A model generated the notes under the pieces. The model was given only the letters and a program-made list of their open reading frames with translations, was not told the DNA's origin and searched no databases. A stretch of 64,000 nucleotides of DNA from Heterodontus francisci (lineage: Eukaryota). Below are positions 11,498 to 64,000 of the stretch, one piece after another. Numbering within the stretch: position 1 is the first letter of the stretch; each line of letters opens with the position of its first letter. The translations under genes and the position numbers were made by a program. The stretch spans positions 65,434,950 to 65,498,949 of the forward strand of contig NC_090381.1 of assembly GCF_036365525.1 (NCBI RefSeq). Reading direction: 5' to 3'.

Positions 11498-12971
11498 GTC
11501 AATAATCTGACAATTATGTAGATGCCATTTTTACTTTGTTCTAATGGTATGAAAATTACATTTAGATGCTTGAGAGGCAATCTTTGAGGACGAAACAACT
11601 GATTTGATGGATCTCTTCGCAAGAAGTAATTTAAAATGAAACCAATTCCCAATTTGATCAGTGTTGTACGAAGATTCTCGTATTATGACTTCCTGGACAT
11701 TAAAGGAAAAAGTGGAATATATCCCATCCTATTTCTGGTGCATAAAATGGCAGATGGGTTCATTGTTTACCTGGAAGCCAGCTTTCCTTTGTAATTTGTG
11801 CACAACAAATATCAGTTTATAAAAATCGCAAACTTGACTGACGTCTCTGAGCAGGAATGATAAGTTTTGGGATACAACCCAAATTGCAACAAATAAAATT
11901 AGATTTTGATATGTTGTAAAATTGTTCTTTGTTTACCATTTTTGGGCTCATGATTTAGGTATTTACTGTGTATGGTGAGGTCACATGAAACAGTCCTGCA
12001 CACCTATCTTTGATCTGTCAGTCTGCGCTTGGACAATGAGGTTGTAGAATACATGAAAAATTGTCAGATTGTATTGTAGTGCCATTTTGAGGGTGGATAT
12101 TTCAAAGAAAAGCTTATTAGTCTTTTCATTATTTGTTTGTACGAATTTAAGGATTAGAACTTTCAATAGTATACTTCCATGGGAATTGTTTTGCTCCAAT
12201 TGCTTTGTCTTTGTTTGGTTGCTGTGTTCATCAACATCTGAGGAAAAATCCATAATGCGTACTTGTTTAGTATGAATTGCTTTATTTAAGTAACAATTAC
12301 ATAACAGGAAATATGTTTTTCTGATTTTACTTATATGCCAAGTAATATGAAATAATGTTTAAGATTTTCATTTTGAGTCTTGTGTGAATTTATGACTGTA
12401 CGCTTTTGTATCCAGTAATTTGCACAACTTGATTTTAGTTTGGAGGGATTTGTCTGTTTTCACAGGAGGTACTTGTAAGCGAGATTTATTTTGAGAGTTT
12501 ACTGCAGTTATCTTTATTGTTTCTTTCTTCAGTGCCATAGATTATACCAGCATCAGACAACCTTATTATTTTTTGCATTCCCACTAATATATATTTTCTA
12601 ACTTATCAATGTGTATTGCAGTTATTTTGTGTCCTGCTGCTGAGTTTGTTTGTTTTCACTTCGGAAGAGCTGCTGACCTGTAATGGTTGCTAATCTAATT
12701 TTTATCACTTAAATCCCACCATTCTATTAAGAGAATTTAACTGACCAAACTCAGTTAATTGTCAAGTGAGTTTCAAGATAGCTCAGCAGAATGGAGCAGC
12801 TGCTAATGATCAGTTATGCCCAGAGTTGCAGAGCAGATGCATTGACTGATAAGTACAGCATCTCAATAAATATAAAAATCTGAAAATGCTAATGAGGATA
12901 CTTGCAGTTTCACTAAGTTTTTTTTATATTGAATCCCTACTTTTGGTTTATTTTGTGTTCTGTCTACGTAG

Positions 12972-13158
12972 ATTTCCTATTTCAAGACCTGACCTCATGG
13001 CAAAATGGCTGAAAGCTGTAGCACGGGAAAACTGGATGCCATCACCAAGATCAACTCTCTGTAGTGATCACTTCACAAAAGATTGTTTTGAAGAACGGAA
13101 TGATAGAAGGCATTTAAAATTCTCTTCCATTCCAACCATATTTCCATCTCAAAATAAG
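12972..13158 (+). CDS. THAP-domain protein, exon 2 (FPISRPDLMAKWLKAVARENWMPSPRSTLCSDHFTKDCFEERNDRRHLKFSSIPTIFPSQNK)
   Basis: Pyrimidine tract plus TAG acceptor; phase 2 matches exon 1. Contains the conserved P, W, C-x-x-H-F and the AVPTIF-like box (SIPTIF). Ends AAG|GTACAG, phase 0. Confidence 0.92.
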
Positions 13159-13197
13159 GTACAGTTTCAACCATTTATTGTGTGTCATTCATTTTAG

Positions 13198-13538: not shown

Positions 13539-14239
13539 CATTTTAGTAAATCATTTTTGATAACTTGTTGATTAAAACTTAAATTTTTGCCCTAGGTGAT
13601 CACAAGTTTTCACAAGTATGTCACTGGTCAGCATGGGTAATCTTGTACACTTTTTGTAAAGACTTTTTAGTTCTCCATTACATATCAAATAACCCAAATC
13701 TTGATTGCTTTAGATAACTTAACAATTTAAAATATAGCTGACTGAATTAAATCGCTACCAAAGCATTAGTGTGTTGGAAGAAACCTACTGAGAAAGTGTC
13801 CTCAAAAGCACGATCTCTGTGGTACACTTTGATCTGGTGCACTGTTATTAACTGTCAGTGGCTCAGAAGAATTGTAGGCAGTATTTTGTGTGGGATTACT
13901 GAATTGTTCTGCTTTTACTGGCTGTTGAAGTCAAGGATGTCACTGAGGGGTTCTTCTGAAGAATGTATTAATGGATTTTTTTTTTAAATAAGGTACAGGT
14001 TTTGACTTGAGGGTTTTTGAAGACAGTGGTGTGGTGGTGAGTATGGTGATGGGTGTGGGGGGGGGGAGGTGTATTAGTTTATATTCTAAAAATTATAATT
14101 TTGAATGGCCCCCAGAGTTTCTTTACCACTGGGTAAATTGAGTTCAAATTATCTCATAGATGGTATGATGCAGTGCAAAATGTGTTGCGTTTTTTTTTTA
14201 CAGAAGAGCAAACAAACATAAATTTTAACTATTTTGCAG

Positions 14240-15199
14240 ACTACAGGCTCCAGAAGGTCATATAAGGCAAAGTCTTCTGATGGATATCATAAGGGAACTT
14301 CGGAGGTACAGATGGCAGATTTCCTGTCGCAACCTGATTCAGTTGATGAAGTATTAAGCCAGTCAACTGAGCAAACTAAAATCACAAATTTACAGTCTAC
14401 ATTAACTACAGAGACACTTAATACAGGGAGACTAGCTCAACTAGCAGCAGCAGCAGTCCTGAATTTAGCAGAATTTTCTCAGGTTTTGGAAGTTCCTGTA
14501 AAACCAGAAGCAGAGTCTTCAGAAGTCCCCACACTATTTAAATGCAGTTCACAAACTCATACATGCACAACAGATGCAAAGATGAAATCAGTTTCAAGCA
14601 AGTTAATAACAGTTCATTCAGAGGAAAAATCTCAAGATTCAGCTGCAGTTCCATGTTCAGATGCCCTCCATTGGACAGCCAATGTATTATCGAGACCTAA
14701 AGTACTATCGGATACATCCACTGTGCTTGTGGGCTCAGTGGATGTATCTGCAGTGTCCACTAGTGTTCCCTGTTTATTTACAACATTTACAGATCTAACA
14801 TCTGAGCGAGTAACAACATCAGAAGAAACAACTTGGATATCTACAGAAGTGCTTATCCCAGAAACAGAGATCACACAACCATCCACTCCAGTCTTTGCTT
14901 TTGAAGAACTGCAGTGTTCCTCTGAGACTATGCTTTCTTCTTCTGATGATCAAGATGTGTCAGGAATGACATTTTTTCAGGATCACAGTTACTTTATGAG
15001 TCCTTGCCCAGATACCATCAGGAGAACTCTAGAAAAGAAACTTGCATGGGAAAGAAAGAAGAATGAAGAGCATAAGCAAAAATTCAGAGTACTCCAACAA
15101 AAACTGAGAAGAAAAGAGCAGAAAATTGACAATCTCACCAAACTCATCAACCAGCTGAGAGAAAGTAAGACTGACCGTCTGTGGAACAGTAATGTATAG
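14240..15199 (+). CDS. THAP-domain protein, terminal exon 3 (Ser/Thr-rich linker, DHSY HCF-1-binding motif, coiled coil)
   Basis: TTTTGCAG|ACT acceptor in phase 0 opens a 319-codon ORF. DHSY lies at 14981-14992, followed by a K/R/E/L-rich heptad region (LEKKLAWERKK...LQQKLRRKEQKIDNLTKLINQLRE), the standard THAP+HBM+coiled-coil layout. Total about 405 aa. Confidence 0.85.
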   Translation, partial: TTGSRRSYKAKSSDGYHKGTSEVQMADFLSQPDSVDEVLSQSTEQTKITNLQSTLTTETLNTGRLAQLAAAAVLNLAEFSQVLEVPVKPEAESSEVPTLFKCSSQTHTCTTDAKMKSVSSKLITVHSEEKSQDSAAVPCSDALHWTANVLSRPKVLSDTSTVLVGSVDVSAVSTSVPCLFTTFTDLTSERVTTSEETTWISTEVLIPETEITQPSTPVFAFEELQCSSETMLSSSDDQDVSGMTFFQDHSYFMSPCPDTIRRTLEKKLAWERKKNEEHKQKFRVLQQKLRRKEQKIDNLTKLINQLRESKTDRLWNSNV

Positions 15200-36584: not shown

Positions 36585-36661
36585 ATGTACCTCTGATTCA
36601 AACAAAAGTTGCGTTAATGGGAAAGGTTGGGGACACTGAAGAGATTCTGAAAGCCTTGGAG
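36585..36661 (+). CDS. ECT2: ECT2 exon (DVPLIQTKVALMGKVGDTEEILKALE)
   Basis: Pyrimidine tract plus CTAG acceptor, GTAATG donor; human EMPQIETRVILVQEAGKQEELIKALK. Confidence 0.88.
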
Positions 36662-37812: not shown

Positions 37813-37905
37813 ACAGTTAAAGAAATTGAAGTTCCTATGATGGTGAAGGAAAGCATGCCTAATAGCAAGTTGGGACAACGGTTTATAAAATCAATTGCAA
37901 ATATG
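37813..37905 (+). CDS. ECT2: ECT2 93-nt cassette exon homolog (TVKEIEVPMMVKESMPNSKLGQRFIKSIANM) with non-canonical donor
   Basis: 31 aa colinear with the human alternatively spliced TIKIMEVPVIKIKESCPGKSDEKLIKSVINM; CAG acceptor; donor position reads ATAGGT. Confidence 0.6.
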
Positions 37906-59822: not shown

Positions 59823-60039
59823 TCAGCAAGTCCAACCCTTAAGACGTCTGTGTCTTTGCTTTCACTGAGCACACCAAATAGCATGCGCAAGAGGCGCCGC
59901 TTACGCGATACACTGGCTCAGTTTACAAGAGAGGCTGACAACTTCTCGCCTTTTCCTCCATGCAAAAGGCCGTCAGCGGAAGCTTCCATTTCACTGGGAT
60001 CTTTGTTGGACATCTCTAACACGCCGGACTCCTGCAGAG
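59823..60039 (+). CDS. ECT2: ECT2 exon, S-loop/NLS (SASPTLKTSVSLLSLSTPNSMRKRRRLRDTLAQF...GSLLDISNTPDSCR)
   Basis: CAG acceptor, G|GTGGGT phase-1 donor; human SVSMLSLNTPNSNRKRRRLKETLAQL...GSLLDISNTPES. Confidence 0.95.
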
Positions 60040-60099
60040 GTGGGTTGACAGGTTTTTTTTTTATGTTCTATTGAGATGTATGAAATGTTTTTGGAATCA

Positions 60100-60910
60100 G
60101 AGTAATATAGCATAGAAGAACATGTGGCCCACTTTGCCTTTGGCTCTTTTGAAGAGTTATCCAATTAGTCCCATAATCCTGCTCTTTCCCGATAGCCCTG
60201 CCAATTTTTTCACTTCCGATTATTTAATTTCCTTTTGAAAGTTACTATTGAATTTCCATCACCACCCTTTCAACATTTTGCGCCTCGTTTTTTTGCCAGT
60301 CATCTGAAATCTGTGCCCTCAGGTTACTGACCCGTCTGCCACTGGAAAACCCTTGATGACTTTGAATACCTCTATCAAATCTCCTCATCTTCTGTATTTC
60401 TCTATTAATAAAATCAAGGCTCCTATATACTTTAACAGTCTCCAACTTGTCATGCCACCTTTCTTGCAGGCACCCACTTTAAAATTGTACCATTTCATTA
60501 TATTGTTTCACCCCATTCTTCCTACCAAAAATGTCACTTCACGTATCTGCATTAAATTTCATCTATTATGTGTTTGCCTGTTTCATCAGTCTGTGTCCTC
60601 CTGAAATCTGTTGCTGTTTCCTCATTGCTTAATACAATCCCGAGTTTCAAGTCATCTGCAGGCTTTGAAATTATGCCCTGGAACACAAATGCAGATTAAT
60701 ATCAAAAAGGGCAGTAGTCTTAATACAGACCCCGGGGAACACCACGATGTACTTTGCTCAAGTCTGGAAAAGCATTCACCACCAATCTCTGCTTTCTTAC
60801 CCTCAGCAAATTTTGTATCCACTCTACTATTGTCCCTGAAATAAACTTTAACTTTGCTTCAAGTCTATTATGTAGTAATCTGTTAAATGCCTTTTTGAAA
60901 GTCAACCTTC
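60100..60910 (-). mobile_element. Decayed CR1 LINE fragment
   Basis: Minus strand FKKAFNRLLHNRL, RGVPRG and CR1 3' UTR remnants. Confidence 0.7.
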
Positions 60911-60926
60911 TCCATTACTTCATTAG

Positions 60927-63344
60927 AACATTACAGCGCAGTACAGGCCCTTCGGCCCTCGGTGTTGCGCCGACTTGTGAAACCATCTGACCTACACTAT
61001 TCCATTTTCATCCATATGTCTATCCAATGACCACTTAAATGCCCTTAAAGTTGGCGAGTCTACTACTGTTGCAGGCAGGGCGTTCCACGCCCCTACTCCT
61101 CTCTGAGTAAAGAAACTACCTCTGACATCTGTCCTATATCTATCACCCCTCAACTTAAAGCTATGTCCCCTCGTGTTTGCCATCACCATCCGAGGAAAAA
61201 GACTCTCACTATCCACCCTATCTAACCCTCTGATTATCTTATATGTCTCTATTAAGTCACCTCTCCTCCTCCTCTCTAACGAAAACAACCTCAAGTCCCT
61301 CAGCCTTTCCTCGTAAGACCTTCCCTCCATACCAGGCAACATCCTAGTAAATCTCCTCTGCACCCTTTCCAAAGCTTCCACATCCTTCCTATAATGCGGT
61401 GACCAGAACTGCACGCAATACTCCAGGTGCGGCCGCACCAGAGTTTTGTACAGCTGCAGCATGACCTCGTGGCTCCGAAACTCGATCCCCCTACTAATAA
61501 AAGCTAACACACCATATGCCTTCTTAACAGCCCTATTAACCTGGGTGGCAACTTTCAGGGATTTATGTACCTGGACACCAAGATCTCTCTGCTCATCTAC
61601 GCTACCAAGAATCTTCCCATTAGCCCAGTACTCTGCATTCCTGTTACTCCTTCCAAAGTGAATCACCTCACACTTTTCCGCATTAAACTCCATTTGCCAT
61701 CTCTCAGCCCAGCTCTGCAGCCTATCTATGTCTCTGTACCCTACAACATCCTTCGGCACTATCCACAACTCCACCGACCTTCGTGTCATCCGCAAATTTA
61801 CTAACCCACCCTTCTACACCCTCTTCCAGGTCATTTATAAAAATGACAAAGAGCAGTGGCCCCAAAACAGATCCTTGCGGTACACCACTAGTAACTAAAC
61901 TCCAGGATGAACATTTGCCATCAACCACCACCCTCTGTCTTCTTTCAGCTAGCCAATTTCTGATCCAAAGCACTAAATCACCTTCAATCCCATACTTCTG
62001 TATTTTCTGCAATAGCCTACCGTGGGGAACCTTATCAAACGCCGTACTGAAATCCATATACACCACATCCACGGCTTTACCCTCATCCACCTGTTTGGTC
62101 ACCTTCTCGAAAAACTCAATAAGGTTTGTGAGGCACGACCTACCCTTCACAAAACCGTGCTGACTATCTCTAATGAACTTATTCTTTTCAAGATGATTAT
62201 AAATCCTGTCTCTTATAACCTTTTCCAACATTTTACCCACAACCGAAGTAAGGCTCACAGGTCTATAATTACCAGGGCTGTCTCTACTCCCCTTCTTGAA
62301 CAAGGGGACAACATCTGCTATCCTCCAGTCTTCCGGCGCTATTCCTGTCGACAATGACAACATAAAGATCAAGGTCAAAGGCTCTGCAATCTCCTCCCTG
62401 GCTTCCCAGAGAATCCTAGGATAAATCCCATCTGGCCCAGGGGACTTATCTATTTTCACACTTTCCAAAACTGCTAACACCTCCTCCTTGTGAACCTCAA
62501 TCCCATCTAGCCTAGTAGTCTGTATCTCTGTATTCTCCTCGACAACATTTTCTTTCTCTACTGTAAATACTGACGCAAAATATTCATTTAACGCTTCCCC
62601 TATCTCCTCTGATTCCACACACAACTTCCCACTACTATCCTTGATTGGCCCTAATCTAACTCTAGTCATTCTTTTATTCCTGATATACCTATAGAAAGCC
62701 TTAGGGTTTTCCTTGATCCTATCCGCCAATGACTTCTCGTGTCCTCTCCTCGCTCTTCTTAGCTCTCCCTTTAGATCCTTCCTGGCTAGCTTGTAACTCT
62801 CAAGCGCCCTAACTGAGCCTTCACGTCTCATCCTAACATAAGCCTCCTTCTTCCTCTTGACAAGCGCTTCAACTTTTTTAGTAAACCATGGCTCCCTCGC
62901 TCGACAACTTCCTCCCTGCCTGACAGGTACATACTTATCAAGGACACGCAGTAGCTGCTCCCTGAATAAGCTCCACATTTCGATTGTGCCCATCCCCTGC
63001 AGTTTCCTTCCCCATCCTACGCATCCTAAATCTTGCCTAATCGCATCATAATTTCCTTTCCCCCAGCTATAATTCTTGCCCTGCGGTATATACCTGTCCC
63101 TGCCCATCGCTAAGGTAAACCTAACCGAATTGTGATCGCTATCACCAAAGTGCTCACCTACATCTAAATCTAACACCTGGCCGGGTTCATTACCCAGTAC
63201 CAAATCCAATGTGGCATCGCCCCTGGTTGGCCTGTCCACATACTGTGTCAGAAAACCCTCCTGCACACACTGGACAAAAACTGACCCATCTAAAGTACTT
63301 GAACTATAGTATTTCCAGTCAATATTTGGAAAGTTAAAGTCCCC
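60927..63344 (-). mobile_element. Young 5'-truncated CR1 LINE, ORF2 intact except for one frameshift, 6-bp TSD
   Basis: A 541-aa ORF (GDFN...SDH...QHGF...DFSTAFD...QGSVLGP...FADD) continues into a second ORF after a frameshift near 61735. CATTAG at 60921-60926 and 63345-63350. Confidence 0.95.
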
Positions 63345-63477
63345 CATTAGTTGGATTCTACTGAGAAAGCAGCAAAATATTTTGAGTGAATTGTTAATAA
63401 CATTTAAAACTAAAGTACATAAGGAAGGAATAACCAGTGCAATACTATTTCATTCAGTTTATTTATTTTTCTTTCAG

Positions 63478-64000
63478 AATATGAAATGAACAGGATAGTA
63501 AAGAGGCATAGAAAAAATGATAGACAGCAGGGCACATTTGTGCAAGTTGGCAAACCGATCCATAACTGGAGAGTTCAGAGATGCTCAAAAAATGGAAAAA
63601 GGTCTGGCAAGCTTATTGGTAATACCAACTCAGAAATAGAACAACATGCCAAATTTCTAGAATTTCTTCAGCCAAAGAAGGAAGGATCTGGATATTACAC
63701 CATTGGTTCCCCCATTAGCTTTCCGGAGGCAAAATTAGCACTTGAGTTTGAAGATACACCTAAGGTTAGAAATGAGACAGAAAAAGGAGAAAAATTTCAA
63801 AGGGAAGCTTTTATAGAATTTCCAGGAGTTACTGAGAGCAATAATGTCTTGTGCAGCAACACTGAGATTGAGATGGATGCTTCTGTCTGCAGTCCAGAAA
63901 AACTTGGTCAGATAGATGAAGGACTTTTATCTCAGAAAAATAGTGCAGAGGAGAATATAGCAAACTTTAGCAAGGCTACTGACTTGTCGCAAGTGATTGA
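63478..64000 (+). CDS. ECT2: Candidate large ECT2 exon without a human counterpart (open to the window end)
   Basis: Strong acceptor TTTATTTATTTTTCTTTCAG. Spliced in phase 1 to the exon ending at 60039 it reads EYEMNRIVKRHRKNDRQQGTFVQVGKPIHNW...EFEDTPKVRNETEKGEKF...KATDLSQVI with no stop in 523 nt. Confidence 0.6.

What the first reader, a model, noticed from the sequence alone, without database searches (positions are those of the whole stretch)
63478..64000. Large in-frame extra exon in ECT2 between the NLS/S-loop and the DH (RhoGEF) domain
Seen: a textbook acceptor (T-rich tract + CAG at 63475-63477) followed by at least 174 stop-free codons in exactly the phase (1) left by the preceding ECT2 exon. 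The ORF track misses it because it runs off the window. The peptide is basic at its start (KRHRK, KNGKRSGK), acidic later, and carries S/T-P sites (GSP, DTPK, CSPEK). Known: in human the next exon begins GDTPKSCTK and runs into the DH domain (ARWQVAKELYQTESNY); that exon is not present in 60040-63477. Inference: this is a lineage-restricted long insert or an alternative terminal exon in the hinge that controls BRCT-mediated autoinhibition. It would give either a giant ECT2 or a BRCT-only, GEF-less isoform.
Basis: partly seen in the sequence, partly recalled or inferred. Interest (0 to 1): 0.78.

Follow-up and report, generated by a model that had tools for sequence, protein, structure and literature searches.

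The report
Ancient optional long exon in ECT2
A shark's gene for the cell-division switch ECT2 carries a large optional exon, shared with other sharks, rays and chimaeras and probably with coelacanth and turtles, that lengthens the protein's flexible hinge and may give vertebrates a second, differently placed form of the switch like one known in fruit flies.

Summary
In detail: an acceptor at 63475-63477, then 173 stop-free codons in phase 1. The peptide is 63-76% identical to an insert in annotated ECT2 isoforms of four sharks, and a ray and a chimaera carry it too. There it is 275-296 aa long and returns in frame to the ETPK/DH exon. Five of these six species also have models that skip it. 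So it is an internal cassette giving an ECT2 of about 1,200 aa with all domains, not a GEF-less form or a transposon. It is probably not shark-specific: its first 34 residues match coelacanth and softshell-turtle inserts at the same site in register (0 of 56,256 control windows score as high), although free searches miss this. The window matches Heterodontus francisci ECT2, whose two models seen skip it. No splice junction was shown for this species. Function is inferred: the closest analogue is Drosophila Pbl-B, whose authors ask whether unidentified vertebrate Ect2 isoforms do the same job. Ten literature searches found no description, and this scan had no earlier ECT2 finding. Real, already in gene models, unstudied.

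The parts
63478..64000 (+). 5' 523 nt of the optional S-loop exon of ECT2 (phase 1). About 120 further codons are expected beyond the window, ending near 64,360 (inferred from relatives).
   Evidence: 77% identical to Pristiophorus ECT2 X1 residues 424-598 of an insert spanning 424-719.
63458..63477 (+). Polypyrimidine tract and CAG acceptor
   Evidence: Sequence. Relatives' inserts start at the same residue.
63478..63629 (+). Basic first 50 residues (net +10 here, +6 to +11 in relatives), with KRHRK (63501-63515). This is the part that matches coelacanth and turtle inserts.
63630..63671 (+). Conserved SEI..H..LEF.Q block, predicted helix at low confidence
   Evidence: Alignment; helix 31-48 of P0124
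63876..63887 (+). DASV, matching the Plk1 consensus D/E-x-S/T-hydrophobic, at the same column in 6 of 8 chondrichthyan sequences
   Evidence: consensus as stated in PMC2680336. Motif match only.
59823..60039 (+). Upstream S-loop exon with the Cdk1 site and NLS1 (RKRRR, 59886-59900) and NLS2 (here C-K-R, 59961-59969). Ends in phase 1.
   Evidence: NLS positions from PMC3158779 and PMC4300507
34946..59732 (+). Upstream ECT2 coding exons (start codon 34946; BRCT0-2 exons near 36587, 40017, 43827, 44930, 50038, 58554, 59100, 59670)
   Evidence: tblastn: nine blocks match Heterodontus francisci ECT2 X1 (P0036), with differences only at exon edges
60920..63350 (-). LINE (endonuclease plus reverse transcriptase; CR1-like by my recall) in the intron before the exon, ending about 130 nt upstream of the acceptor. 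Separate from the exon.
   Evidence: ORFs 61722-63449 and 60992-61813; Pfam RVT_1 1.8e-29; contig depth in the thousands stops at about 63345

Best explanation
This is the first 60% of an old, alternatively spliced cassette exon (phase 1-1, about 290 codons in cartilaginous fishes) in the S-loop of ECT2. Skipping gives the ordinary ECT2 of about 870-910 aa; inclusion gives one of about 1,160-1,200 aa with BRCT0-2, DH and PH all intact. Shown: exon, frame, conservation, and inclusion and skipping in relatives' gene models (about 0.92). Inferred from an anchored alignment: the exon's 5' end dates to the last common ancestor of jawed vertebrates (about 0.8). Inferred only (about 0.4): the insert is a mostly disordered spacer whose conserved basic start, some 25 residues behind the Cdk1-switched NLS, adds an import or membrane-binding signal, while the long acidic rest loosens the BRCT-to-DH/PH coupling. 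The long form would then differ in where and when it activates RhoA (earlier nuclear return, less midzone dependence), as Drosophila Pbl-B does, probably in a subset of tissues.
For: Four of 280 candidates hit, all shark ECT2, 63-76% identity over the full query. Inserts are 296, 288, 289, 290, 286 and 275 aa in six species, all open and returning to ETPK. Five of those six species, and coelacanth (P0041 vs P0053), also have skipping models. An unnamed ORF, P0124, diverges from the spliced forms exactly at the insert's end, as expected from reading through a phase-1 donor (inference). Insert identity is 39-81% against 87-98% for DH-PH, yet 55 of 301 columns are invariant in six sequences and cluster at the two ends. 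Acceptor-anchored ungapped match: Pelodiscus p<=6e-4 and coelacanth p<=1.3e-3 at 7 of 7 lengths, with all slid controls negative. With the split codon left out, 0 of 56,256 natural 34-mers score as high. A turtle profile finds the coelacanth and snake inserts above 300 of 300 shuffles. All 13 inserts measured have 11-17 K/R in the first 60 residues. No residue of the insert-only model reaches pLDDT 70 (pTM 0.14). Contigs of a run guessed to be RNA (X5) cover 359 of the 523 nt, and one runs 142 letters past the window; a second organism's run (X6) covers 63850-64000 (weak). Pbl-B precedent: PMC10238489, PMC12589889.
Against: No 60039-to-63478 joint was listed in any of four runs, though repeats swamped the table and 15 joints were not shown. 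The two Heterodontus models seen (P0035, P0036) skip the exon, as do 29 of the 36 chondrichthyan records listed. All inclusion evidence comes from automated gene models; I did not see their read support. Free searches do not link shark and bony-vertebrate inserts: the shark profile scores turtles at shuffle level and coelacanth at 3 of 300, and hhalign gives probability 0.6%, E 0.1. Mauremys, Gopherus and the snake fail at zero offset (p 0.35-0.97) and fit only with a 3-residue shift chosen afterwards. Teleost inserts show no similarity. A classical K-K/R-x-K/R motif is present in only 5 of 8 sequences. The full-length model was poor throughout (mean pLDDT 40.5, PH domain also under 50), so low confidence there does not prove disorder. 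Pbl-B's exon lies inside BRCT2, not in the S-loop. No functional or tissue data exist.
Confidence: 0.6

Rival explanations
1. The exon is real and old, but works through its conserved 3' block (EMSS.SEC...SF..WDV, beyond the window, about 25 residues before the DH domain). That block would act as a built-in ligand which, once phosphorylated, binds ECT2's own BRCT domains or DH surface and so bypasses or competes with centralspindlin.
For: The last 30 columns are the most conserved of the insert (12 invariant of 30). A Plk1 consensus site sits there in 4 of the 7 sequences that reach it. Plk1-phosphorylated serines of CYK-4 are the known BRCT ligand (PMC2680336). A resemblance to that CYK-4 segment, and to inhibitory helices just ahead of DH domains in other GEFs, is recalled and comes from no call.
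Against: The block is absent from the coelacanth, turtle, snake and teleost inserts, so it cannot be the ancestral function. A PDB search with it gave only weak WD40 look-alikes (best E 0.015). No CYK-4 sequence could be fetched for comparison.
Confidence: 0.15
2. The exon is a tolerated, low-level lengthening of a flexible linker. It is kept open only because inclusion must not break the frame, and has no distinct function.
For: Fast divergence (39-81% identity). Length varies from 66 to 296 aa across vertebrates. Most listed records skip it (100 of 120). No paper describes it.
Against: A rarely used, functionless exon should have picked up stops or frameshifts between shark, ray and chimaera. 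Instead six of six are open, with clustered invariant columns and a shared basic start.
Confidence: 0.17
3. It serves, at least sometimes, as an alternative last exon. The transcript would read through the donor and be polyadenylated in the intron, giving a BRCT-only, GEF-less protein.
For: P0124 and three like ORFs on unnamed contigs of 983-1,807 nt end with a stop a few codons past the inferred donor. The exon's 3' end in this genome is outside the window.
Against: All six full-length chondrichthyan homologues continue into DH-PH. The P0124 contigs may simply be genomic DNA.
Confidence: 0.05
4. The open frame is a transposon remnant or a chance frame beside the LINE.
For: A LINE ends about 130 nt upstream.
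Against: No Pfam transposon domain; the only Pfam hit is below cut-off. No second copy in the window. Contig depth is 0-14 over the exon bins from 63517 on, against thousands over the LINE. The only named homologues are ECT2 isoforms; the one other hit is an unnamed ORF that aligns to the same insert.
Confidence: 0.01

Closest known systems
RefSeq/UniRef long ECT2 isoforms of cartilaginous fishes (e.g. XP_038672068.1 Scyliorhinus canicula, XP_048460561.1 Rhincodon typus, XP_043558142.1 Chiloscyllium plagiosum, XP_069753011.1 Narcine bancroftii)
   Same: Same exon: same start residue, 49-77% identity to the window peptide across the six species compared, same position.
   Different: Automated models with no published study found. 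The two Heterodontus francisci models seen (XP_067898329.1, XP_067898331.1) do not include it.
Drosophila Pebble isoform Pbl-B (alternative exon 8, 458 aa; PMC10238489, PMC12589889)
   Same: ECT2 orthologue with a large, fast-evolving, predicted-unstructured optional exon between the N-terminus and DH, keeping all domains. Long and short forms coexist.
   Different: Pbl exon 8 lies inside BRCT2 and is reported almost only from insects; this exon lies in the S-loop after the NLS. Probably convergent. Pbl-B's behaviour (no midzone signal, early nuclear entry, needed in spermatocytes) is shown for flies only.
Human ECT2 exon 5 variant (ECT2-Ex5+; PMC7049692)
   Same: An alternatively spliced coding exon of vertebrate ECT2 with a reported functional effect.
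   Different: It lies in the BRCT region, not the S-loop. The matching shark exon (37813-37905) is only 31 codons and is a separate feature.
Same-site inserts in Latimeria (82 aa), turtles (about 265 aa), Erythrolamprus (119 aa) and catfish/characin (66-77 aa) ECT2 models
   Same: Same position and a basic start. Coelacanth and Pelodiscus match the shark exon's first 34 residues in register.
   Different: Length and downstream sequence are unrelated. Homology of the teleost inserts was not detected.

Membership tests
ECT2 gene | N-terminal BRCT0-BRCT1-BRCT2 and S-loop with NLS | tested here: met
   Window exons match ECT2 X1 of Heterodontus francisci; Pfam ECT2_BRCT0 and BRCT on P0002
ECT2 gene | DH and PH domains downstream, in frame | tested here: inconclusive
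   Met in six relatives carrying the insert. Lies beyond the window, and no genome is held.
Alternative internal cassette exon | Canonical acceptor in the phase left by the upstream exon | tested here: met
Alternative internal cassette exon | Symmetric phase: inclusion and skipping both keep the frame | tested here: met
   Long forms read DSCG-E...E-ETPK and short forms DSCG-ETPK in relatives. The donor itself was not seen in this genome.
Alternative internal cassette exon | Both forms exist within one species | tested here: met
   Gene models of 5 of 6 chondrichthyan species with the insert, plus coelacanth. Models, not reads.
Alternative internal cassette exon | Junction reads in this species | tested here: inconclusive
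   No joint listed; contigs only, and the table was swamped by repeats
Pbl-B-type long ECT2 isoform | Large optional insert that keeps all BRCT, DH and PH domains | tested here: met
Pbl-B-type long ECT2 isoform | Insert is unstructured | tested here: inconclusive
   pLDDT below 70 everywhere and pTM 0.14 from an 8-sequence alignment; the full-length model was poor overall
Pbl-B-type long ECT2 isoform | Insert lies inside BRCT2 (Pbl exon 8) | tested here: not met
   Pfam BRCT2-containing PDB chains end at catshark residue 317-323, and the insert starts at 391. It is therefore not filed as Pbl exon 8.
Pbl-B-type long ECT2 isoform | Sequence homology to Pbl exon 8 | not tested
   No Pbl-B sequence was fetched. 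No insect hit appeared.
Pbl-B-type long ECT2 isoform | Excluded from midzone, broad cortical signal, early nuclear entry | not testable with these tools
   Needs cell imaging
Transposon ORF | Transposon protein domain or multi-copy DNA | tested here: not met

The most novel reading that the evidence does not exclude
Jawed vertebrates ancestrally make a second, long ECT2 through this S-loop exon. It is the missing vertebrate counterpart of fly Pbl-B, evolved independently at a different site: a form that activates RhoA broadly at the cortex without centralspindlin, used in germ cells or in the cleavage of large eggs. It was kept in cartilaginous fishes, coelacanth and reptiles, and lost or overlooked in birds and mammals, where nearly all ECT2 work has been done.
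Probability: 0.25. Interest if true: 0.75.

Novelty: new variant of a known kind. Interest (0 to 1): 0.5.

Why it matters
ECT2 is the central RhoA activator of animal cytokinesis, and its S-loop holds the Cdk1-controlled NLS that cytokinesis needs (bioRxiv 10.1101/2025.09.04.674117; PMC4300507). In flies a long isoform with a big optional exon drives a second, pole-directed mode of contractility. [quoted passage not shown] This exon is a concrete candidate that can be tested by expressing catshark, turtle or coelacanth long and short forms in ECT2-depleted cells. The interest is capped because the exon is already in automated gene models and its function is pure inference.

Tried and rejected
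No whole genome is held, so the exon's 3' end, donor and dN/dS could not be examined.

Run search: no RNA holder listed on record; RNA labels are guesses. Laying four runs (X5, X21, X22 from one sample, X6 from another organism) gave no exon-exon joint. X5 had no cover of the upstream constitutive exons, X22 none of this exon from 63517 on, and X21 cover in one bin. These blanks say nothing about tissue, because contigs drop variants and a filter removes human-like records. Including the LINE in the stretch swamped the tables.

Complex prediction (BRCT region + DH-PH + the insert's last 47 residues, catshark): no verdict, score 0.00 in two runs, alignments not used.

Full-length AlphaFold model: too poor to judge autoinhibition; no fold search was run on either model. 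ESM Atlas on the insert: no usable hit. Pfam on the peptide: one sub-threshold ribosomal L24 hit, taken as chance. PDB search with the insert's end block: WD40 look-alikes only, rejected.

Turtle-insert search: 4 hits of 852 candidates, all turtles. It missed even the snake insert, so it is no evidence that birds or mammals lack the exon. Free profile comparisons between shark, turtle and teleost inserts were negative.

Literature: ten searches found no paper on an ECT2 S-loop insert. PMC9799973 concerns a PH-domain loop and was set aside. Scan look-ups by sequence and by words found no earlier ECT2 finding. My notebook says 8 batoid records have C-K-R; the count is 7.

Full report
Observation. 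The acceptor, phase and open frame are as described. The upstream exon 59823-60039 is 217 nt and leaves phase 1. From 63478 the matching frame has 173 full stop-free codons to the window end, while the other + frames hold 10 and 21 stops. None of 20,000 shuffles was open in that frame. The window has other open frames of similar length, so I did not rest the case on length. The gene is ECT2: nine tblastn blocks match Heterodontus francisci ECT2 X1 (P0036) with differences only at exon edges, so the source is that species or a very close one. No genome is held, so nothing beyond 64,000 could be read.

What it is. The peptide found 4 proteins among 280 candidates, all shark ECT2 isoforms, at 63-76% identity over the whole query. 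A search with the S-loop and the insert's start found 1,369 proteins, of which the best 120 were listed; the ranking favours insert-bearing relatives. Of the 120, 17 have more than 60 residues between LLDISNTP and RWQV, 100 have fewer, and 3 could not be measured. Among the 36 chondrichthyan records, 6 (Pristiophorus, Scyliorhinus canicula, Rhincodon, Chiloscyllium plagiosum, Narcine, Callorhinchus) carry an insert of 275-296 aa, 1 carries only its first 19 aa, and 29 skip it. All six long forms return in frame to ETPK and keep DH and PH. Five of the six species also have skipping models; Rhincodon showed only the long form. Human ECT2 in PDB 6L30 aligns on both sides of the insert and lacks it. 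The window holds about 60% of the exon, and its end is expected near 64,360 (inference). This is a phase 1-1 cassette exon, already in automated gene models but not in the two Heterodontus models I saw. It is not part of the neighbouring LINE.

RNA. No holder is on record as RNA. Contigs of X5, guessed to be RNA and from the sample that may be the source of the DNA, cover 63606-63789 and 63826-64000, and one continues 142 letters past the window. X6, from another organism, covers 63850-64000 with two differences, both changing a residue. No junction was listed. Splicing in this species is therefore not shown.

Age. Inserts at the same site occur in coelacanth (82 aa), turtles (about 265 aa; six species), a snake (119 aa) and catfish/characin models (66-77 aa). 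Free profile searches do not connect them to the shark insert. After seeing a weak in-register hhalign match, I scored ungapped alignments fixed at the inferred acceptor. Pelodiscus and coelacanth beat shuffles at 7 of 7 lengths (p<=6e-4 and p<=1.3e-3), with every slid control negative. Leaving out the split codon, 0 of 56,256 natural 34-mers reached either score; among 70,345 20-mers, 16 reached the Pelodiscus score and 0 the coelacanth score. Mauremys, Gopherus and the snake fail at zero offset and fit only three residues in, which suggests a shifted acceptor but was chosen afterwards. A turtle profile does find the coelacanth and snake inserts above all 300 shuffles. The coelacanth start is fixed by its skipping model (P0053); the Pelodiscus start is inferred from the flank. 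I put common ancestry of the 5' end across jawed vertebrates at about 0.8. Teleost inserts are unresolved. All but one of the bird records listed lack an insert here (P0096 has an unrelated 27 aa), and mammals were not sampled beyond 6L30, so loss there is not shown.

Anatomy. The insert evolves fast (39-81% identity against 87-98% for DH-PH). It keeps a basic first 50 residues (net +6 to +11), a SEI..H..LEF.Q block, a D/E-A-S-hydrophobic site in 6 of 8 sequences, and a Ser/acidic-aromatic block in its last 30 columns; the rest is acidic. The insert-only model has no confident residue and three weak helices, which is compatible with disorder but does not prove it.

How it probably works (inferred). 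The S-loop carries two NLS motifs, and Cdk1 phosphorylation next to the first blocks importin binding (PMC3158779, PMC4300507: passages). That NLS is required for cytokinesis (bioRxiv 10.1101/2025.09.04.674117: passages). The feature shared by all inserts, short or long, is a basic start close behind these motifs. The simplest reading is an added import or membrane-binding segment plus, in sharks and turtles, a long spacer between the BRCT and DH-PH modules. Drosophila Pbl-B is the working analogue. Its 458-aa optional exon is predicted unstructured, removes midzone localisation and speeds nuclear entry (PMC10238489: abstract, passages, section 8 and part 1 of the Discussion), and spermatocytes depend on it (PMC12589889: passages). 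The fly exon lies inside BRCT2, so this is 'works like, perhaps', not membership. Rivals are a cis-acting ligand in the 3' block (0.15), a neutral linker (0.17), a terminal exon (0.05) and a transposon (0.01).

Novelty. Ten searches of the open-access library found no description of this exon. Subscription papers are mostly outside the library, and I did not open any supplements; Supplementary Fig. 2 of PMC10238489 could bear on this. Other papers seen as passages only: PMC7049692, PMC12246546, PMC2680336, PMC9799973 and bioRxiv 10.64898/2026.06.03.729549. This scan had no earlier ECT2 finding.

Verdict: a real, old, optional exon, new as a described variant but present in public annotation, with a testable link to a stated open question. 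Interest 0.5.

Noticed in passing
window 37813-37905 +: A 93-nt copy of the optional BRCT0 exon (probably the counterpart of human exon 5, by position; included in P0001, P0003, P0011 and others) is followed by AT instead of GT. The donor looks dead in this genome, and both Heterodontus models seen lack the exon.
   Followed up: partly
window 59961-59969 +: The second S-loop NLS reads C-K-R instead of R-K-R. The same change is in both Heterodontus records and all 7 batoid records, but in none of the other 27 chondrichthyan records, so it may have arisen twice. Mutating this motif delocalises human ECT2 (PMC3158779).
   Followed up: partly
window about 60920-63350 -: A young-looking LINE with a long open endonuclease/reverse-transcriptase frame (61722-63449, plus 60992-61813) sits about 130 nt upstream of the optional exon's acceptor. 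It might affect inclusion in this lineage.
   Followed up: partly
P0012 (Callorhinchus milii model): Includes only the first 19 aa of the exon (the basic part), implying an internal donor. Together with the short coelacanth and teleost inserts, this hints that the basic start is the core and length varies at the 3' end.
   Followed up: no
P0001, P0002, P0036 and other chondrichthyan ECT2, segment between ETPK and ARWQVA: Sharks, rays and chimaera lack the S-T-P motif that human 6L30, birds, turtles and catfish have just before the DH domain. I recall this site as a Cdk1/Plk1 docking site in human ECT2; not checked.
   Followed up: no
window 14222-15196 + and 12853-13194 +: A 325-codon open frame upstream of ECT2, and a nearby 114-codon frame with a THAP-like start (my recall), possibly a transposon-derived or separate gene.
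   Followed up: no
window 63456-63457 +: A second AG 20 nt upstream of the acceptor; its use would shift the frame.
   Followed up: no
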